Both the position numbers and the translations under genes were made by a program. The notes under the pieces were generated by a model, which had not been told where the DNA came from, ran no database searches, and saw only the letters and a list, made by a program, of their open reading frames with translations. DNA of 57,545 nt, taken from Deltaproteobacteria bacterium (GTDB taxonomy: Bacteria; Myxococcota_A; UBA796; SXON01). Shown here one piece after another: positions 28,441 to 37,531 of this stretch; positions within the stretch are counted from its first letter, which is position 1; each line of letters opens with the position of its first letter. The stretch spans positions 1-57,545 of the forward strand of contig VGRE01000001.1 in the NCBI GenBank assembly GCA_016875435.1, read 5' to 3'.

Positions 28441-29670
28441 TCACGGCGCGCCCAGCCGGTGGAGCACAATCTCGCTCGCGATGCCCATCCGGGGCGGCAG
28501 CCCGGTGTGCCAGTTGCCGCGGTGCACCCACAGCGCCGTGCCCTCGCGCTCGAACCGGCCCTGGTCGTAGGCGCCGAACAAACGGAGCAAGCTCCAGGGG
28601 CGGCCCACGTCCACGCCCACCTGTCCCCCGTGGGTGTGGCCGGCGAGCACCAGCTGGAATCGTCCCGGGGGCACCGCGTCGAATACCCGCGGATCGTGTA
28701 CCATCAGCAGGCGACGGTCGGCGGGTGGGGCGGGCATGCGGGCGATCGCTGCCGCCGCGCGCGCGCGGGCGTCCTTCCAGTGGAAGTTCACCGCGGCCAC
28801 CTCTACCGTGAGGTCGCCGAGCACCAGGAGCCGCGACTCGTCTACGAGGCAGTGCATGCCTCGGGCCTCGAAACCGGCGCGCAGTCGCTCGGCGACGGGG
28901 AGGTCGTGATTGCCGAGGCAGGCGACGACGGGAACGTTCAGTCGCGACAGGGCGTCGAGCACGAAGTCAAAGTCGCCCTCGGAGTAGGGCATCAGGTGGT
29001 CGCCGGTGACGGCCACGATCTCCGGCGAGAGCGCCTGGGCTCGCCCGACCACCGCGTCGAGGTCGCGGCGTGTCATCAGGGGGCAGCCGTGGAGGTCGCT
29101 CAGGTGGACGACGCGCAGGGCGCGCTCTCCGGTGCCCACCCGGTGCTCGCGGACGGTCGAGTGGCGCAGGTAGGTCCACGCCGTGCCGAGGAGAGCCAGG
29201 CCGAGCGGCCCGAGGAGCCAGGCCCCCGGCCACCAGTCCCGCGTCAAGAGCGCGTAGGGCGCCCAGAAACACAGCCAGAGCCCGGTCCACAGCGAGAACG
29301 CCATCGCCGCCTGCGCGAGCCGGGCCAGCGCCGTCCAGAACGGCCCCGGGTCGCGACGTAGATCGAGCGCGTGGAAGAGGCCGTAGATCGCGGCCGGTCC
29401 CACGGCGAGCGAGAGGCCGAGCGCCCAGGAACGAGCGCCCGAGAGGCTCCACAGCGTGGGGTAAACACCCACCATCGCCACCACGAGCACGGCCACGGCG
29501 TGGTCGTTGAGCGTTCGTCCACCGCGCCACACCCGCCAGCAGGTGAGCACCGCGAGGAGCGCCGCGGCGCCCCAGCCGAGAAGGTGAGCCTGCGCGCTAC
29601 CCGCAGTCAACGAGGCAGTCGCTACCGGTGTCGTCGGGCTCGGGGCTGGACTCGCCACCGCCGGAACCAT
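28441..29670 (-). CDS. membrane-anchored metallophosphoesterase (calcineurin-like)
   Basis: Several N-terminal TM segments, then VVHLSDLHG, VTGDH, LGNHD and LAGHTHGGQV. Confidence 0.85.
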   Translation of the reverse strand: MVPAVASPAPSPTTPVATASLTAGSAQAHLLGWGAAALLAVLTCWRVWRGGRTLNDHAVAVLVVAMVGVYPTLWSLSGARSWALGLSLAVGPAAIYGLFHALDLRRDPGPFWTALARLAQAAMAFSLWTGLWLCFWAPYALLTRDWWPGAWLLGPLGLALLGTAWTYLRHSTVREHRVGTGERALRVVHLSDLHGCPLMTRRDLDAVVGRAQALSPEIVAVTGDHLMPYSEGDFDFVLDALSRLNVPVVACLGNHDLPVAERLRAGFEARGMHCLVDESRLLVLGDLTVEVAAVNFHWKDARARAAAAIARMPAPPADRRLLMVHDPRVFDAVPPGRFQLVLAGHTHGGQVGVDVGRPWSLLRLFGAYDQGRFEREGTALWVHRGNWHTGLPPRMGIASEIVLHRLGAP

Positions 29671-29721
29671 CGCAAGCGAAGAACAGCCAGGAGAGGAGGA
29701 GCATCATGCGGCGACCATAAC

Positions 29722-30306
29722 TCACAGGCCACCGAAGAGGGCCTGGCAGTCTTCCAGCACGTCCTGGGGCGAGGTGCTGTAGTTCACGTCGTCGTACTCC
29801 AGCAGCACCGCGCCGTCGTCGCCGAGCAACCTCGTGATGCGGTCGGCAACGGTGGTGCGATCGCTCTCTGCGGCGCCGTAGTACAGCGCCAGCGTCTTGT
29901 CGTCGTCGGTCCAGAGGTCGAAGAGGTAGCCCTCTTCCTCAGCCCAGGCCTGGTTGGCGCTCGGTTCGTCGAAGGAAACGCCCACGATCTTGACGCCAAG
30001 GGCGTCGAAGTGTTGCTGGCGGTCGCGGTACCCGCAACCTTCTGTGGTTCAGCCAGCGGTGTTGGCGAGCGGGTAGAACCAGATCACCGTGGGGTGGCCC
30101 ACGAGGTCGACGCTGGTGCGCGCGGTGCCGTCGCGGTTGGTGGCCGCAAACTCGGGAACGGGCACCGGCTCGCTCGGCGCCACGCCGTGGAGGCCTTGCG
30201 GCATCGGCTCGGCGCTGTCGCCGGTGTCGGCCGCGGGGGCGCTGGTGTCGGCGGAGACTTCGGCTTGGGGCTGTTTCGCCGCGCAGGCCACGAGGAGGAG
30301 CATCAT
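29722..30306 (-). CDS. BCP-type peroxiredoxin lipoprotein with in-frame TGA at the peroxidatic position (candidate selenocysteine)
   Basis: ORFs 30049-30306 and 29722-29985 are in the same frame and are separated only by the TGA at 30049-30051. The read-through gives IWFYPLANTAG-U-TTEGCGYRD...GVSFDEP, which is the FYPxxxTPGCTxExCxFRD Prx/BCP signature. N-terminal lipobox LLLVAC. Confidence 0.6.
30021..30039 (-). other. candidate bacterial SECIS stem-loop
   Basis: mRNA GGUUGCG-GGUAC-CGCGACC forms a 7-bp stem including one G-U pair. It begins 9 nt after the UGA, so the loop starts about 17 nt after the UGA and contains GU. Confidence 0.4.
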
Positions 30307-30315
30307 GACGGCCGA

Positions 30316-30846
30316 CTAACCGACCCCCCAGCCGACGAGGTCGCCGGGGACGTTGAAGTTGAGGACACAGCCGGGGTCGCTCACCTCGACGCGCGGGGCG
30401 AGGCGAAGGCGCTCGTCGAGGCGGCCGGGGCGGTGGGGCGCCGCGAGCCGCACCGGGTGACCGTCGCGACCCTGGAACCTGGGGACCGCGTCGCCGGTGG
30501 CGGCGAGCAAGGCGGCGAGGGTGTCGGGCCGGGGCGGCGGCAGGTCGACCGGGGAAAGCAGGCAGTCGCCCAGCCCATTCAGGGCGAGCCAGGCCGACGC
30601 TGCCGGGTCGGTGGCGGCCCAGTCATGGTTCTCGACCACGCGCACCCCGGCGGGGACCACGGCCCGGACCCGCGGGGCCTCGGCTCCGATGACGACCGTG
30701 ACCCGCAGGCCGAGCGAGGCATAGGCACGGATGTGCCACAGCAGCAGCGGCTCGCCGTCGAGCGGGAGCAGCGCCTTGGGGCGGCCCATCCGGCGCCCGC
30801 CGCCGGCGGCGAGGACAACCGCTTCGCGCAGCCCCGCGTGTTCCAC
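30316..30846 (-). CDS. MobA/MocA-like nucleotidyltransferase (molybdenum cofactor nucleotidylyltransferase family)
   Basis: VVLAAGGGRRMGRPKALLPLDGEPLL is the MobA-like NTP_transf_3 signature. Confidence 0.75.
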   Translation of the reverse strand: MEHAGLREAVVLAAGGGRRMGRPKALLPLDGEPLLLWHIRAYASLGLRVTVVIGAEAPRVRAVVPAGVRVVENHDWAATDPAASAWLALNGLGDCLLSPVDLPPPRPDTLAALLAATGDAVPRFQGRDGHPVRLAAPHRPGRLDERLRLAPRVEVSDPGCVLNFNVPGDLVGWGVG

Positions 30847-36494: not shown

Positions 36495-36589
36495 ATTGCA
36501 TGCTTTCGCTTACGACGCGGGTGGGGCGGTCGTCGCGGGGGGCGGATCGTCGTGACCCTGACCCGGGGGCACTCCCTCCTCCCTCCTCC

Positions 36590-37531
36590 CTAGGGCAGGT
36601 ACCCGACGGGATCGACCGACTCGCCGTCGACGATCAGGTCGAAGTGGAGGTGCGGGCCGGTGCTCATGCCCGAGTTGCCCGAGTAGGCGATGAGCTGGCC
36701 GGCGAGCACTTCCTCGCCCTCGTCGACCACCAGCACGGCGTTGTGGCCGTAGCGGGTGTACACCCCCTCGCCATGGTCGATGATCACCTGCCGGCCGCTG
36801 CCGCCGCTCCAGTCGGCCGTCACCACCGTGCCATCAGATGTCGCGACAACAGGTGTATAGTAAGGAACGCCGATGTCGATGCCGCTGTGCATCGTCCAGC
36901 GGCCCCCGAAGGGGGACCTGCGGTAACCCCACTCGCTGGTCAGCGTGCCGCCCTCGACTGGCCACAACTGCGGGAGGGCGCCTCCCCGGCGCTGCAGCAG
37001 GAGCGCGTCGTCCTCGAGCGCGTCGAGCCGGGACACCACGTCGTCGAGGTCGAGCGCGATCTCCTCGCTCCGCTCGACGATCGCCAGGGCGAGGTCGGCG
37101 GGCTCGCCCCCGGGCCACTCCAGCGTCGCCGGGACGGCCTCGCCCGCGAGCCACGCCTCGTAGGCCTCCATCTCGCGGGCATCGAGCGGCCCGGCCCCGG
37201 GCAGGCGTCCCTCGCGCGCGAGGGCGCGCACCTGGTCGTCGAAGGCCTCTACCCGCCCAGCCAGTCCTTCCATGTGGGCCAGCCTTGCCTCGGTTGACTC
37301 GAGGCCCGTGCGCAAGCGAGCGTTCTCGGCGAGGAGCCGCCGCGCCTGGGCAGCCTTTGGCAAGGCCCAGCCTGCTGCCACCAGCAGCACGAGCAGCGCG
37401 GTGCTGGCCACGATGGCCACGCGCGCGCCGAACTGGACCGCGCGCGCGCTCACCTCCACCTGCCGCACCTGCCCGTTGGCCCCGCGCGGCACGATCAGGA
37501 TGGTGAAGCCGCGCTTGGACTGCTTCTGCAT
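36590..37531 (-). CDS. M23 family metallopeptidase with N-terminal TM and coiled-coil
   Basis: HSGIDIGVP ... GNSGMSTGPHLHFDLIVDG are the LytM/M23 active-site motifs. Confidence 0.85.
   Translation of the reverse strand: MQKQSKRGFTILIVPRGANGQVRQVEVSARAVQFGARVAIVASTALLVLLVAAGWALPKAAQARRLLAENARLRTGLESTEARLAHMEGLAGRVEAFDDQVRALAREGRLPGAGPLDAREMEAYEAWLAGEAVPATLEWPGGEPADLALAIVERSEEIALDLDDVVSRLDALEDDALLLQRRGGALPQLWPVEGGTLTSEWGYRRSPFGGRWTMHSGIDIGVPYYTPVVATSDGTVVTADWSGGSGRQVIIDHGEGVYTRYGHNAVLVVDEGEEVLAGQLIAYSGNSGMSTGPHLHFDLIVDGESVDPVGYLP

What the first reader, a model, noticed from the sequence alone, without database searches (positions are those of the whole stretch)
29722..30306. Peroxiredoxin split by an in-frame TGA at the catalytic position: candidate selenoprotein with SECIS-like hairpin
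The two ORFs called at 30049-30306 and 29722-29985 are in the same frame. They are interrupted only by the TGA at 30049-30051. Read-through restores a complete lipoprotein BCP/Prx: ...IWFYPLANTAG-[TGA]-TTEGCGYRDRQQHFDALGVKIVGVSFDEP... The TGA falls exactly where the peroxidatic Cys of the T-P-G-C-T-x-E-x-C motif sits, and the resolving Cys is retained 5 residues later (UxxxxC). Nine nt after the UGA the mRNA can fold into GGUUGCG-GGUAC-CGCGACC. This places a GU-containing apical loop about 17 nt downstream, within the geometry described for bacterial SECIS elements. Sec-containing Prx-like proteins are known in Deltaproteobacteria, so this gene is probably mis-called as two fragments by standard ORF finding.
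Basis: partly seen in the sequence, partly recalled or inferred. Interest (0 to 1): 0.65.

Follow-up and report, generated by a model that had tools for sequence, protein, structure and literature searches.

The report
Selenocysteine peroxiredoxin miscalled as two genes
The two short ORFs are one gene for a BCP/PrxQ-type peroxiredoxin whose catalytic cysteine is replaced by a UGA-encoded selenocysteine with an insertion hairpin just downstream; this is a new, widely misannotated branch of a known selenoprotein family in uncultured Myxococcota-like bacteria.

Summary
Minus-strand ORFs 30306-30049 and 29985-29722 share a frame and are separated only by TGA 30051-30049. Read-through gives a 194-residue AhpC/TSA protein (Pfam 7e-23). 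The TGA aligns with the peroxidatic Cys, and the PxxxTxxU motif, the Cys at +5 and the catalytic Arg are all present.

In 80 related genome loci, nearly all Myxococcota or 'Deltaproteobacteria' MAGs, 72 carry TGA at this codon and 8 carry TGC. Coding sequence is conserved on both sides.

In all 78 distinct TGA forms the six codons after U-T-x-E/Q are nearly frozen at synonymous sites as GGT TGC GGG TAC/TTC CGC GAC (one CGT). They form the hairpin GGUUGCGG-GUA-CCGCGACC. The eight TGC forms, in three separate clades, use other codons and fold weakly (-3.7 to -7.5 against -11.9 kcal/mol).

The hairpin meets all four criteria of the published bacterial SECIS model. dN/dS against the closest relatives is 0.10-0.27 before the TGA and 0.13-0.23 after it. 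Three independent lake metagenome assemblies carry the same TGA.

A true selA lies 4 kb from the orthologue in one MAG. The sel genes of the window's own genome could not be examined.

Sec-containing Prx (PF00578/COG1225, TxxU) is a known selenoprotein family, so this is a new member, not a new kind.

The parts
29722..30306 (-). Complete gene for a 194-residue Sec-containing BCP/PrxQ-type peroxiredoxin. ATG at 30306-30304, Sec-UGA at 30051-30049, terminal TGA at 29724-29722.
   Evidence: One frame with a single internal TGA. PF00578 AhpC-TSA 7e-23, residues 49-167. Best solved relatives are BCP/PrxQ.
30283..30306 (-). Very short N-terminal hydrophobic segment with lipobox, MMLLLVAC (Cys8 codon 30285-30283). 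An acidic, low-complexity linker follows, to about residue 45.
   Evidence: A crude regex finds a lipobox Cys in 61 of 80 family members, and several of the rest show one by eye. Many have ordinary signal peptides beginning MR/MK. An in-frame TAG 4 codons upstream excludes a longer N-terminus in the window.
29806..30162 (-). AhpC/TSA (thioredoxin-fold peroxiredoxin) domain, residues 49-167.
   Evidence: Pfam coordinates. The AlphaFold model of the Cys homologue P0001 has domain pLDDT above 90, and its top Foldseek hits are Sulfolobus Bcp1, Xanthomonas PrxQ and M. tuberculosis BcpB, with TM about 0.8 on the target.
30049..30051 (-). In-frame UGA: selenocysteine codon at the peroxidatic position (residue 86 of PxxxTxxU).
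   Evidence: It aligns with the Cys of FYPKDSTPGC, the motif that carries the peroxidatic Cys, in PrxQ. The codon is TGA in 78 distinct homologous sequences and TGC in 8. Three independent assemblies confirm it.
30021..30039 (-). SECIS apical hairpin GGUUGCGG-GUA-CCGCGACC. It starts 9 nt after the UGA, and the loop (30031-30029) begins 17 nt after it. It is encoded by codons G-C-G-Y-R-D plus the first base of the next codon.
   Evidence: The 19-nt hairpin folds at -11.9 kcal/mol. RNAalifold gives it as the consensus structure for 72 sequences, with 99.8% of cells paired. Its synonymous sites are frozen in Sec forms only.
30034..30036 (-). Cys91, the predicted resolving cysteine 5 residues after Sec (UxxxxC).
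   Evidence: Read directly from the sequence. It is present in all 80 aligned family members, though the search patterns required it.
29839..29841 (-). Arg156, the conserved active-site arginine of peroxiredoxins.
   Evidence: It aligns with the Arg of IERSTFLL in Xanthomonas PrxQ. It is invariant in 80 of 80 members.
29746..29748 (-). Cys187 in the C-terminal motif VLEDCxxLFG, a third cysteine of unknown role.
   Evidence: It is Cys in 64 of 80 family members. It lies in the last helix of the model.

Best explanation
One gene (30306-29722, minus strand) encodes a selenocysteine-containing peroxiredoxin of the BCP/PrxQ class.

How it is made. During translation the UGA at 30051-30049 is decoded as Sec. 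SelB carrying Sec-tRNA(Sec) is recruited by the hairpin GGUUGCGG-GUA-CCGCGACC, which lies 9 nt downstream inside the coding sequence. This is inferred from the anatomy and comparative data. It has not been shown biochemically.

How it probably works. The product has a lipobox Cys at residue 8 and an acidic linker, so it is probably a lipid-anchored cell-envelope protein. Sec86 of the PxxxTxxU motif would attack a peroxide with the help of Thr83 and Arg156, giving a selenenic acid. Cys91 would resolve it into an intramolecular selenenylsulfide, as the +5 Cys does in E. coli-type BCP. An unidentified thioredoxin-like envelope reductant would then recycle the enzyme.

Standard gene finders stop at the UGA and report two fragments.
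For: Shown here:

1. Single in-frame TGA, AhpC/TSA domain, and TGA aligned to the peroxidatic Cys.
2. Of 80 loci from species-representative genomes, 72 have TGA and 8 have TGC at this codon. With the window, the metagenome loci and paralogues, that makes 78 distinct TGA forms. The 20 residues upstream (..HPTVxWFYPxxxTxG) and the residues downstream (TxEGCGYRD..) are conserved in frame.
3. Synonymous sites are frozen only in Sec forms. In the first 72 Sec forms, GGT, TGC, GGG and GAC are each 72/72 and CGC is 71/72. Nearby codons vary freely, for example Gly +18 is GGC 43, GGT 14, GGG 9, GGA 5. In the 8 Cys forms, Gly +4 is never GGT, Gly +6 is never GGG, and Asp is GAC, GAT or GAG.
4. The only two changes inside the element are compatible with its function. 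CGC to CGT turns G-C into G-U, and the third loop base changes from A to U (TAC to TTC), leaving the loop G-U intact.
5. The Cys forms fall in three separate clades nested among Sec forms. In each the hairpin has decayed to -3.7 to -7.5 kcal/mol, against -11.9.
6. All four criteria of the consensus bSECIS model in PMC13188914 (Fig. 2) are met: loop of 3-9 nt, stem of 4-16 bp, G then G/U at the start of the loop, 16-37 nt from UGA to loop (here 17), and MFE at or below -7.5.
7. dN/dS of the window against L008 and L009 is 0.10-0.27 for the 45 codons before the TGA and 0.13-0.23 after it.
8. A bona fide selA (TIGR00474, 440.9 bits, cutoff 267.9) lies 4 kb upstream of the TGA orthologue on contig L017.
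9. Catalytic Pro79, Thr/Ser83 and Arg156 are invariant in 80 of 80 members.
10. The TGA is present in three independent assemblies.
Against: - No selA, selB, selD or tRNA-Sec lies in the 57.5-kb window. The rest of the genome was not available, so Sec competence of this organism is inferred from its clade.
- The hairpin is invariant, so there is no compensatory base-pair covariation. Support rests on the Sec-versus-Cys contrast at synonymous sites.
- The window lacks the extended lower stem seen in some orthologues such as L001, which has 14 bp with a bulged G.
- The window's signal peptide has only 7 residues before the lipobox Cys and no basic residue. This is atypically short, so export of this particular copy is uncertain.
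- No expression, selenium-labelling or activity data exist.
Confidence: 0.93

Rival explanations
1. Nonsense pseudogene: a TGC-to-TGA mutation inactivated an ordinary Cys-peroxiredoxin, and the two ORFs are decaying remnants.
For: TGC and TGA differ by one base. Cys forms of the same family exist. No Sec machinery lies in the window.
Against: - The same TGA is present in 72 of 80 related genome loci at 47-92% protein identity, with no frameshifts or further stops.
- dN/dS is 0.10-0.27 upstream and 0.13-0.23 downstream in the window's own clade.
- A hairpin maintained at synonymous sites makes no sense for a dead gene.
Confidence: 0.02
2. Split enzyme: two separately translated polypeptides, an 85-residue lipoprotein ending at the UGA and a C-terminal piece re-initiated just downstream, assemble into a peroxiredoxin without a peroxidatic residue.
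For: Gene callers start many C-terminal fragments at an ATG, GTG or TTG two codons after the TGA, giving M/VEGCGYRD....
Against: - That codon is not a conserved start. Among 72 Sec forms it is GTC 24, ATC 11, GTG 8, ACC 6, AAG 3 and others. In the window it is ACA.
- The next possible start in the window is 21 codons downstream, inside a beta-strand.
- The assembly would lack the catalytic residue, while every other catalytic residue is kept.
Confidence: 0.01
3. UGA is read through, but not as Sec. The mechanisms would be a reassigned UGA, near-cognate Trp or Cys insertion, or Cys loaded on tRNA(Sec), with the hairpin acting only as a read-through or pausing stimulator.
For: The chemical identity of residue 86 was not determined. 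Hairpins downstream of stop codons can stimulate read-through in general (general knowledge).
Against: - TGA is the commonest ordinary stop of high-GC3 ORFs in the window and also terminates this gene. This excludes reassignment.
- The position is the redox-active Cys site, where Trp would kill the enzyme.
- The hairpin matches the SelB-type bSECIS model and shares GGUUGC(A/G)GGU with the E. coli fdhF SECIS.
- selA is linked to an orthologue.
Confidence: 0.04

Closest known systems
Sec-containing peroxiredoxin 'Prx' selenoprotein family (PF00578 / COG1225, motif TxxU or PxxxTxxU), from the Sargasso Sea and GOS metagenome surveys and prokaryotic selenoproteome reviews (PMC1088965, PMC2398784, PMC13188914)
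   Same: It has the same Pfam domain. Its best solved and structural relatives are BCP/PrxQ proteins, which is the class that COG1225 is recalled to denote. Sec sits at the peroxidatic position in the motif T-A-G-U. Cys homologues are widespread, and a SECIS lies directly downstream.
   Different: This branch carries an N-terminal lipobox and an acidic linker, so it is probably envelope-anchored. It also has a Cys at +5 (UxxxxC), a third conserved Cys in VLEDC, and a 19-nt SECIS hairpin that is nearly invariant across about 78 sequences. It occurs in uncultured freshwater and marine Myxococcota-like MAGs. Direct sequence comparison with the published reference (WP_011365628.1) was not possible with these tools.
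E. coli BCP and Xanthomonas campestris PrxQ (solved BCP/PrxQ peroxiredoxins; 5iph, 5iiz, 3gkn)
   Same: They are the best sequence matches among solved structures (E = 1.6e-13), and the Cys homologue has the same fold. FYPxxxTxGC(U)T, the catalytic Arg and the domain length agree. The resolving Cys 5 residues after the peroxidatic residue matches E. coli BCP (recalled, not tested here).
   Different: Those enzymes use Cys, are cytoplasmic and are reduced by thioredoxin. Xanthomonas PrxQ has its resolving Cys 36 residues downstream instead. Pro of the T-P-G-C motif is Ala in the window.
PrxU, the selenocysteine peroxiredoxin of Eubacterium acidaminophilum (NCBIfam NF040737)
   Same: It is a bacterial peroxiredoxin with Sec at the peroxidatic position.
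   Different: It belongs to a different peroxiredoxin subfamily. The window protein scores 24.3 bits against a cutoff of 270, so it is not a member.
E. coli fdhF SECIS element
   Same: Both are stem-loops inside the ORF just 3' of the UGA, with G-U in the apical loop. The two share the string GGUUGC(A/G)GGU, and both hairpins end at nucleotide +31 from the U of UGA. The fdhF sequence was verified in 5419 of 5426 E. coli genomes.
   Different: The spacer is 9 nt instead of 11. The stem is a continuous 8 bp with a U-G wobble where, from recalled literature, fdhF has a bulged U. The loop is GUA (or GGUAC) instead of GGUC. Binding by SelB was not tested.
'Prx-like' thiol:disulfide oxidoreductase selenoproteins (UxxC or UxxU)
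   Same: They share the AhpC/TSA or thioredoxin fold, a Sec in a redox motif, and frequent occurrence in Deltaproteobacteria.
   Different: Those have a thioredoxin-like UxxC motif. Here the motif is TxxU with Cys at +5, that of a true peroxiredoxin (PMC1088965).

Membership tests
Peroxiredoxin, BCP/PrxQ subfamily | AhpC/TSA thioredoxin-fold domain | tested here: met
   PF00578 at 7e-23, 81.3 bits against a cutoff of 26. The best PDB sequence hits are BCP/PrxQ. The AlphaFold model of the 66%-identical Cys homologue matches Bcp1, PrxQ and BcpB at TM about 0.8.
Peroxiredoxin, BCP/PrxQ subfamily | Universal PxxxT/SxxC active-site motif plus the conserved Arg | tested here: met
   The motif is P79-L-A-N-T83-A-G-U86, with U in place of C, and R156 is present. 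P, T/S and R are invariant in 80 of 80 family members.
Peroxiredoxin, BCP/PrxQ subfamily | Resolving Cys 5 residues after the peroxidatic residue (E. coli BCP type) | tested here: met
   Cys91 gives U86-T-T-E-G-C91. Its role as the resolving residue is inferred by analogy.
Peroxiredoxin, BCP/PrxQ subfamily | Peroxidase activity with a thiol reductant | not testable with these tools
   This needs an enzyme assay.
Bacterial selenoprotein (SelB/SECIS-dependent) | In-frame UGA aligned with a conserved redox Cys of homologues (Sec/Cys pair) | tested here: met
   The codon is TGA in 78 distinct sequences and TGC in 8. Database homologues P0001-P0007 have Cys.
Bacterial selenoprotein (SelB/SECIS-dependent) | bSECIS consensus: 3-9 nt loop, 4-16 bp upper stem, G in the first two loop positions, 16-37 nt from UGA to loop, MFE at or below -7.5 kcal/mol (PMC13188914, Fig. 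2) | tested here: met
   The loop is GUA, the stem is 8 bp, the distance is 17 nt, and the energy is -11.9 (19 nt) or -13.3 (UGA plus 45 nt) kcal/mol.
Bacterial selenoprotein (SelB/SECIS-dependent) | TGA-containing orthologues in other organisms, with conservation on both sides of the TGA and of the hairpin | tested here: met
   72 of 80 genome loci qualify. The hairpin codons are frozen only in Sec forms. dN/dS is below 0.3 on both sides.
Bacterial selenoprotein (SelB/SECIS-dependent) | selA, selB, selC (tRNA-Sec) and selD in the same genome | not testable with these tools
   None lies in the 57.5-kb window (ARAGORN, Rfam, and tblastn with E. coli probes recalled from memory). The rest of the genome is not available. 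selA (TIGR00474, 440.9 bits) lies 4 kb from the orthologue on L017. Laying L017 selA on the source metagenomes gave only short, unattributable patches.
Bacterial selenoprotein (SelB/SECIS-dependent) | Selenium incorporated at the UGA position | not testable with these tools
   This needs 75Se labelling or mass spectrometry.
PrxU (NF040737) Sec-peroxiredoxin | Score above the NCBIfam equivalog cutoff | tested here: not met
   The score is 24.3 bits against a cutoff of 270.
Prx-like (UxxC) thiol:disulfide oxidoreductase selenoproteins | Thioredoxin-like UxxC motif | tested here: not met
   The sequence is U-T-T-E-G-C, that is TxxU and UxxxxC. Motif definitions are from PMC1088965 and PMC2398784.
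Bacterial lipoprotein | Signal peptide with n-region and h-region, followed by a lipobox [LVI][ASTVI][GAS]C | tested here: inconclusive
   The lipobox L-V-A-C8 is present, and most family members have ordinary lipoprotein signals such as MRTALFALLLLGC. The window's pre-Cys segment is only 7 residues and carries no basic residue. No signal-peptide predictor was available.

The most novel reading that the evidence does not exclude
Uncultured freshwater and marine Myxococcota-like bacteria may share a lipid-anchored, cell-envelope selenoprotein peroxidase. It is often present in two or three paralogues. Its SECIS is embedded in the codons of the active-site helix and is held nearly invariant across the lineage, and it resembles the E. 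coli fdhF SelB-binding loop. This would be a rare case of a lipoprotein-type exported Sec enzyme. It would also imply a selenium-dependent envelope peroxide defence with an unknown periplasmic reductant. In the window's clade that partner could be the conserved 36-residue CxxxC lipoprotein encoded immediately downstream.
Probability: 0.3. Interest if true: 0.5.

Novelty: new member of a known kind. Interest (0 to 1): 0.35.

Why it matters
- **Annotation.** This peroxiredoxin is split into two meaningless fragments in public gene calls, for example the 107-residue 'redoxin domain-containing protein' entries. At least 72 species-level MAG genomes are affected. No specific NCBIfam model reached its cutoff for the read-through protein.
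- **SECIS definition.** About 78 sequences of one nearly invariant SECIS, with matched Cys-form controls, define a likely SelB recognition element for a poorly studied phylum.
- **Biology.** The data indicate that these lake and marine bacteria use selenium. They probably place a Sec-peroxidase in the cell envelope, which bears on selenium demand and oxidative-stress ecology.

The general phenomenon, Sec-containing Prx with a TxxU motif, has been known since about 2004-2005.

Tried and rejected
- **Sec machinery and other selenoproteins in the window.** ARAGORN and Rfam found only tRNA-Met. tblastn with E. coli SelA, SelB and SelD probes found nothing in the window. A GC3-continuity scan for in-frame TGAs found only the Prx and one artefact at +37295, which is antisense to the M23 peptidase gene 36590-37531.
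- **Same scan on the 87 loci.** It gave only more Prx copies and adjacent same-frame genes.
- **Rfam search of the hairpin region at permissive E-value.** Only chance hits appeared.
- **tRNA-Sec on L017, L008, L009 and L088.** None was found.
- **Lower or basal helices.** A basal helix pairing UGAAC with GUUCGA is possible in many sequences. It shows no covariation and scores no better than shuffles, so it is not claimed. The extended lower stem seen in L001 is not conserved.
- **Tying Sec machinery to the window's organism.** L017 selA was laid on contigs of the source lake metagenomes. Only short conserved patches from many contigs matched, and they cannot be attributed.
- **Locating the source contig.** An exact look-up of the sigma-factor protein found nothing. 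The 87-residue fragment did find the contig.
- **First search with the full-length alignment A1.** It was rejected because it had no conserved gap-free stretch. A2 was used instead.
Full report
**1. Observation**

The minus strand of 29722-30306 translates as one frame of 195 codons. It contains a single internal stop, TGA at 30051-30049, and ends in TGA at 29724-29722.

The read-through sequence is MMLLLVAC...HPTVIWFYPLANTAG-U-TTEGCGYRDRQQHFDALGVKIVGVSFDEP...VLEDCQALFGGL.

With Cys in place of the stop it matches Pfam AhpC-TSA (PF00578, 7e-23) and Redoxin. The best solved relatives are BCP/PrxQ peroxiredoxins. In the alignment to Xanthomonas PrxQ the stop lies on the Cys of FYPKDSTPGCTTEG, the motif that carries the peroxidatic Cys.

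Nine nucleotides after the UGA the RNA folds into GGUUGCGG-GUA-CCGCGACC (30039-30021). The energy is -11.9 kcal/mol for the 19 nt and -13.3 for UGA plus 45 nt. The 65-nt stretch has z = -2.4 against shuffles. The description is accurate. In a 70.6% GC window the hairpin alone is only mildly unusual.

**2. The TGA is real**

A public contig of the same organism (Logan SRR7053297_55242, 22 kb) carries the identical gene. Its gene calls split it into products of 85 and 87 residues.

The sequence occurs in several lake-water metagenome runs. Contigs of three independent runs cover 30049-30051 without any differing letter.

**3. Homologues**

A protein search returned two kinds of hit:
- full-length Cys forms (P0001-P0007, with G-C-T-x-E-G-C);
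- about twenty fragments of 106-109 residues that all begin M/VEGCGYRD, two codons after the expected TGA, plus an N-terminal fragment ending ...WFYPAAGTSG.

DNA of three such metagenome loci showed GGC TGA ACN NTG GAR GGT TGC GGG TAC CGC GAC.

A scan of one genome per species (GTDB) with an alignment of the C-terminal halves gave 80 loci. Nearly all are Myxococcota, Myxococcales or 'Deltaproteobacteria' MAGs. L008 (92% identity) and L009 (88%) are closest to the window.

At the peroxidatic codon, 72 loci have TGA and 8 have TGC. Counting the window, the metagenome loci and paralogues, there are 78 distinct TGA forms. The reading frame is conserved on both sides in every one. Upstream it reads ..G-x-P-T-V-x-W-F-Y-P-x-x-x-T-x-G and downstream T-x-E/Q-G-C-G-Y/F-R-D.

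Pro79, Thr/Ser83 and Arg156 are invariant in 80 of 80 aligned members.

**4. The hairpin is under selection only where TGA is present**

In the first 72 distinct Sec forms, the six codons that make the hairpin are nearly frozen: GGT 72/72, TGC 72/72, GGG 72/72, TAC 65 and TTC 7, CGC 71/72, GAC 72/72. Neighbouring codons for equally conserved residues vary: Phe +14 is TTC 53 and TTT 19, Asp +15 is GAC 36 and GAT 25, Gly +18 uses four codons. Six further Sec forms with Gln instead of Glu carry the same string.

In the eight Cys forms the same amino acids are encoded differently. Gly +4 is GGC or GGG and never GGT. Gly +6 is GGC, GGA or GGT and never GGG. Asp is GAC, GAT or GAG. The 19-nt segment then folds at only -3.7 to -7.5 kcal/mol, against -11.9.

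A rough neighbour-joining tree puts the Cys forms in three separate clades nested among Sec forms. The link between TGA and hairpin codons is therefore replicated at least three times.

The only two variations within the element in Sec forms preserve function. CGC to CGT turns a G-C pair into G-U, and the third loop base changes from A to U, leaving the loop G-U intact.

Because the stem is invariant there is no compensatory covariation. The evidence is the Sec-versus-Cys contrast at synonymous sites.

A possible basal helix (UGAAC with GUUCGA) shows no covariation and is not claimed. An extended lower stem exists in some orthologues but not in the window.

**5. Comparison with the SECIS model**

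The consensus bacterial SECIS model quoted in a 2026 review (PMC13188914, Fig. 2) has four requirements:

| Requirement | Model | Here |
|---|---|---|
| Apical loop | 3-9 nt | GUA (3 nt) |
| Upper stem | 4-16 bp | 8 bp |
| UGA to loop | 16-37 nt | 17 nt |
| MFE | at or below -7.5 kcal/mol | -11.9 / -13.3 kcal/mol |

All are met.

I recalled the E. coli fdhF SECIS from memory and verified it: the sequence is 100% identical in fdhF of 5419 of 5426 E. coli genomes. It shares GGUUGC(A/G)GGU with this element, and both hairpins end at +31. The spacer differs (11 nt in fdhF, 9 nt here). So does the stem, which from recalled literature has a bulged U in fdhF and here has a U-G wobble. Rfam gave no match to this element.

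**6. Purifying selection in the window's own clade**

| Comparison | Last 45 codons before the TGA | 108 codons after the TGA |
|---|---|---|
| Window vs L008 | dN/dS 0.27 | dN/dS 0.23 |
| Window vs L009 | dN/dS 0.10 | dN/dS 0.13 |

Both halves are maintained as coding sequence, which argues against a recent pseudogene.

**7. Sec machinery**

None of selA, selB, selD or tRNA-Sec is in the window. No other credible in-frame-TGA gene is there either. The one other candidate, at +37295, is antisense to an M23 peptidase gene.

Among the related loci, contig L017 (Myxococcales MAG Baikal-deep-G128) carries a genuine selA about 4 kb upstream of its TGA-Prx (TIGR00474, 440.9 bits, cutoff 267.9). This physically links Sec biosynthesis with the family.

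An attempt to find a selA attributable to the window's organism in its source metagenomes was inconclusive. Sec competence of this genome is therefore inferred, not shown.

**8. What the protein is**

The protein is a BCP/PrxQ-type peroxiredoxin. The AlphaFold model of the 66%-identical Cys homologue P0001 has domain pLDDT above 90. Its top Foldseek hits are Sulfolobus Bcp1, Xanthomonas PrxQ and M. tuberculosis BcpB.

The motif is PxxxTxxU with Cys at +5. From recalled literature, this is the arrangement of peroxidatic and resolving Cys in E. coli BCP. A third Cys, in VLEDC, is conserved in 64 of 80 members, and its role is unknown.

Most family members begin with a lipoprotein-type signal ending in a lipobox Cys, followed by an acidic low-complexity linker. 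The window's version, MMLLLVAC, is unusually short, so export of this copy is likely but unproven.

The inferred mechanism has three steps:
- Sec86 reduces a peroxide to give a selenenic acid.
- Cys91 resolves it into a selenenylsulfide.
- An unidentified envelope thiol reductant recycles the enzyme.

**9. Rivals**

- **Nonsense pseudogene.** Contradicted by sections 3, 4 and 6.
- **Split two-chain enzyme re-initiated after the UGA.** Contradicted because the putative start codon is not conserved (GTC, ATC, ACC or AAG in most, ACA in the window) and the catalytic residue would be missing.
- **Code reassignment.** Excluded because TGA is the commonest normal stop in the window and ends this very gene.
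- **Non-Sec read-through.** It cannot be formally excluded without chemistry, but the SelB-type hairpin and the redox position make it unlikely.

**10. Relation to what is known**

[quoted passage not shown] It had 253 members in the GOS data (PMC1088965, PMC2398784). It is listed with the PxxxTxxU motif in the 2026 review.

The window's protein fits that family. It is not PrxU (24.3 bits against a cutoff of 270). It is also not the 'Prx-like' UxxC group.

The new features are the lineage (uncultured Myxococcota-like MAGs), the lipoprotein architecture, the near-invariant SECIS, and the scale of misannotation. NCBI entries for fragments are named 'redoxin domain-containing protein'.

**Verdict**

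This is a new member of a known kind, of moderate interest.

Noticed in passing
window 29597-29707 (-): A 36-residue ORF, MMLLLSWLFFACDGSGGGESSPEPDDTGSDCLVDCG*, starts 14 nt after the Prx stop. It has a lipobox and a C-terminal CxxxC. It is conserved in frame in L008 (identical) and L009 (several substitutions and one codon indel), but is absent from the other 77 loci. Its first ~17 nt (CATGATGCTCCTCCTC) repeat the Prx start region. It overlaps, out of frame, the called start of the downstream metallophosphoesterase (28441-29670). It could be a small redox partner or a duplicated signal sequence.
   Followed up: partly
L071 7130, 7719, 8438; also L034+L068 (CAIUDO01) and L044+L083 (SXOB01): Some MAGs carry several Sec-Prx paralogues. 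L071 has three in tandem, all with TGA and the same hairpin.
   Followed up: partly
L017 3493-4842 (+): A genuine selA (TIGR00474, 440.9 bits) lies about 4 kb upstream of the TGA-Prx on the same contig of a Lake Baikal Myxococcales MAG. An RluA-family pseudouridine synthase lies between them. No selB or tRNA-Sec is on this contig.
   Followed up: yes
L015, L016, L018, L019, L021, L042, L054, L059, L074, L082: These contigs carry this Myxococcota-type gene, yet their records are titled as Klebsiella pneumoniae, Enterobacterales or Enterobacteriaceae MAGs. The taxonomic labels look wrong.
   Followed up: no
protein P0010 (ENA, 240 aa): This homologue is called as one protein. It reads past the TGA site in another frame for about 35 residues, returns to frame, and ends in CSGH repeats. 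It is probably an indel-ridden assembly or a gene-calling artefact.
   Followed up: no
window 36500-37297 (+), TGA at 37295: A long ORF pair separated by TGA with a tempting C-L-G-U context. It is antisense to the real M23 peptidase gene (36590-37531, minus strand, HLHFD motif) and so is an artefact of high GC.
   Followed up: yes
window 28441-30846 (-): The Prx sits in a same-strand run. A MobA-like NTP transferase (30316-30846, PF12804) ends 9 nt before the Prx ATG. The Prx is followed by the small lipoprotein ORF and then a membrane metallophosphoesterase (PF00149). A Crp/cNMP-binding regulator is divergent upstream. This neighbourhood is not conserved in the wider family.
   Followed up: partly
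A3 columns 4-6 (codon -1, Gly before the UGA): The Gly codon before the UGA is GGT in 40 of 72 Sec forms despite high GC, and never GGT in the 8 Cys forms. This may reflect a UGA-context effect or a basal pairing. A covariation test of the basal helix was negative.
   Followed up: partly
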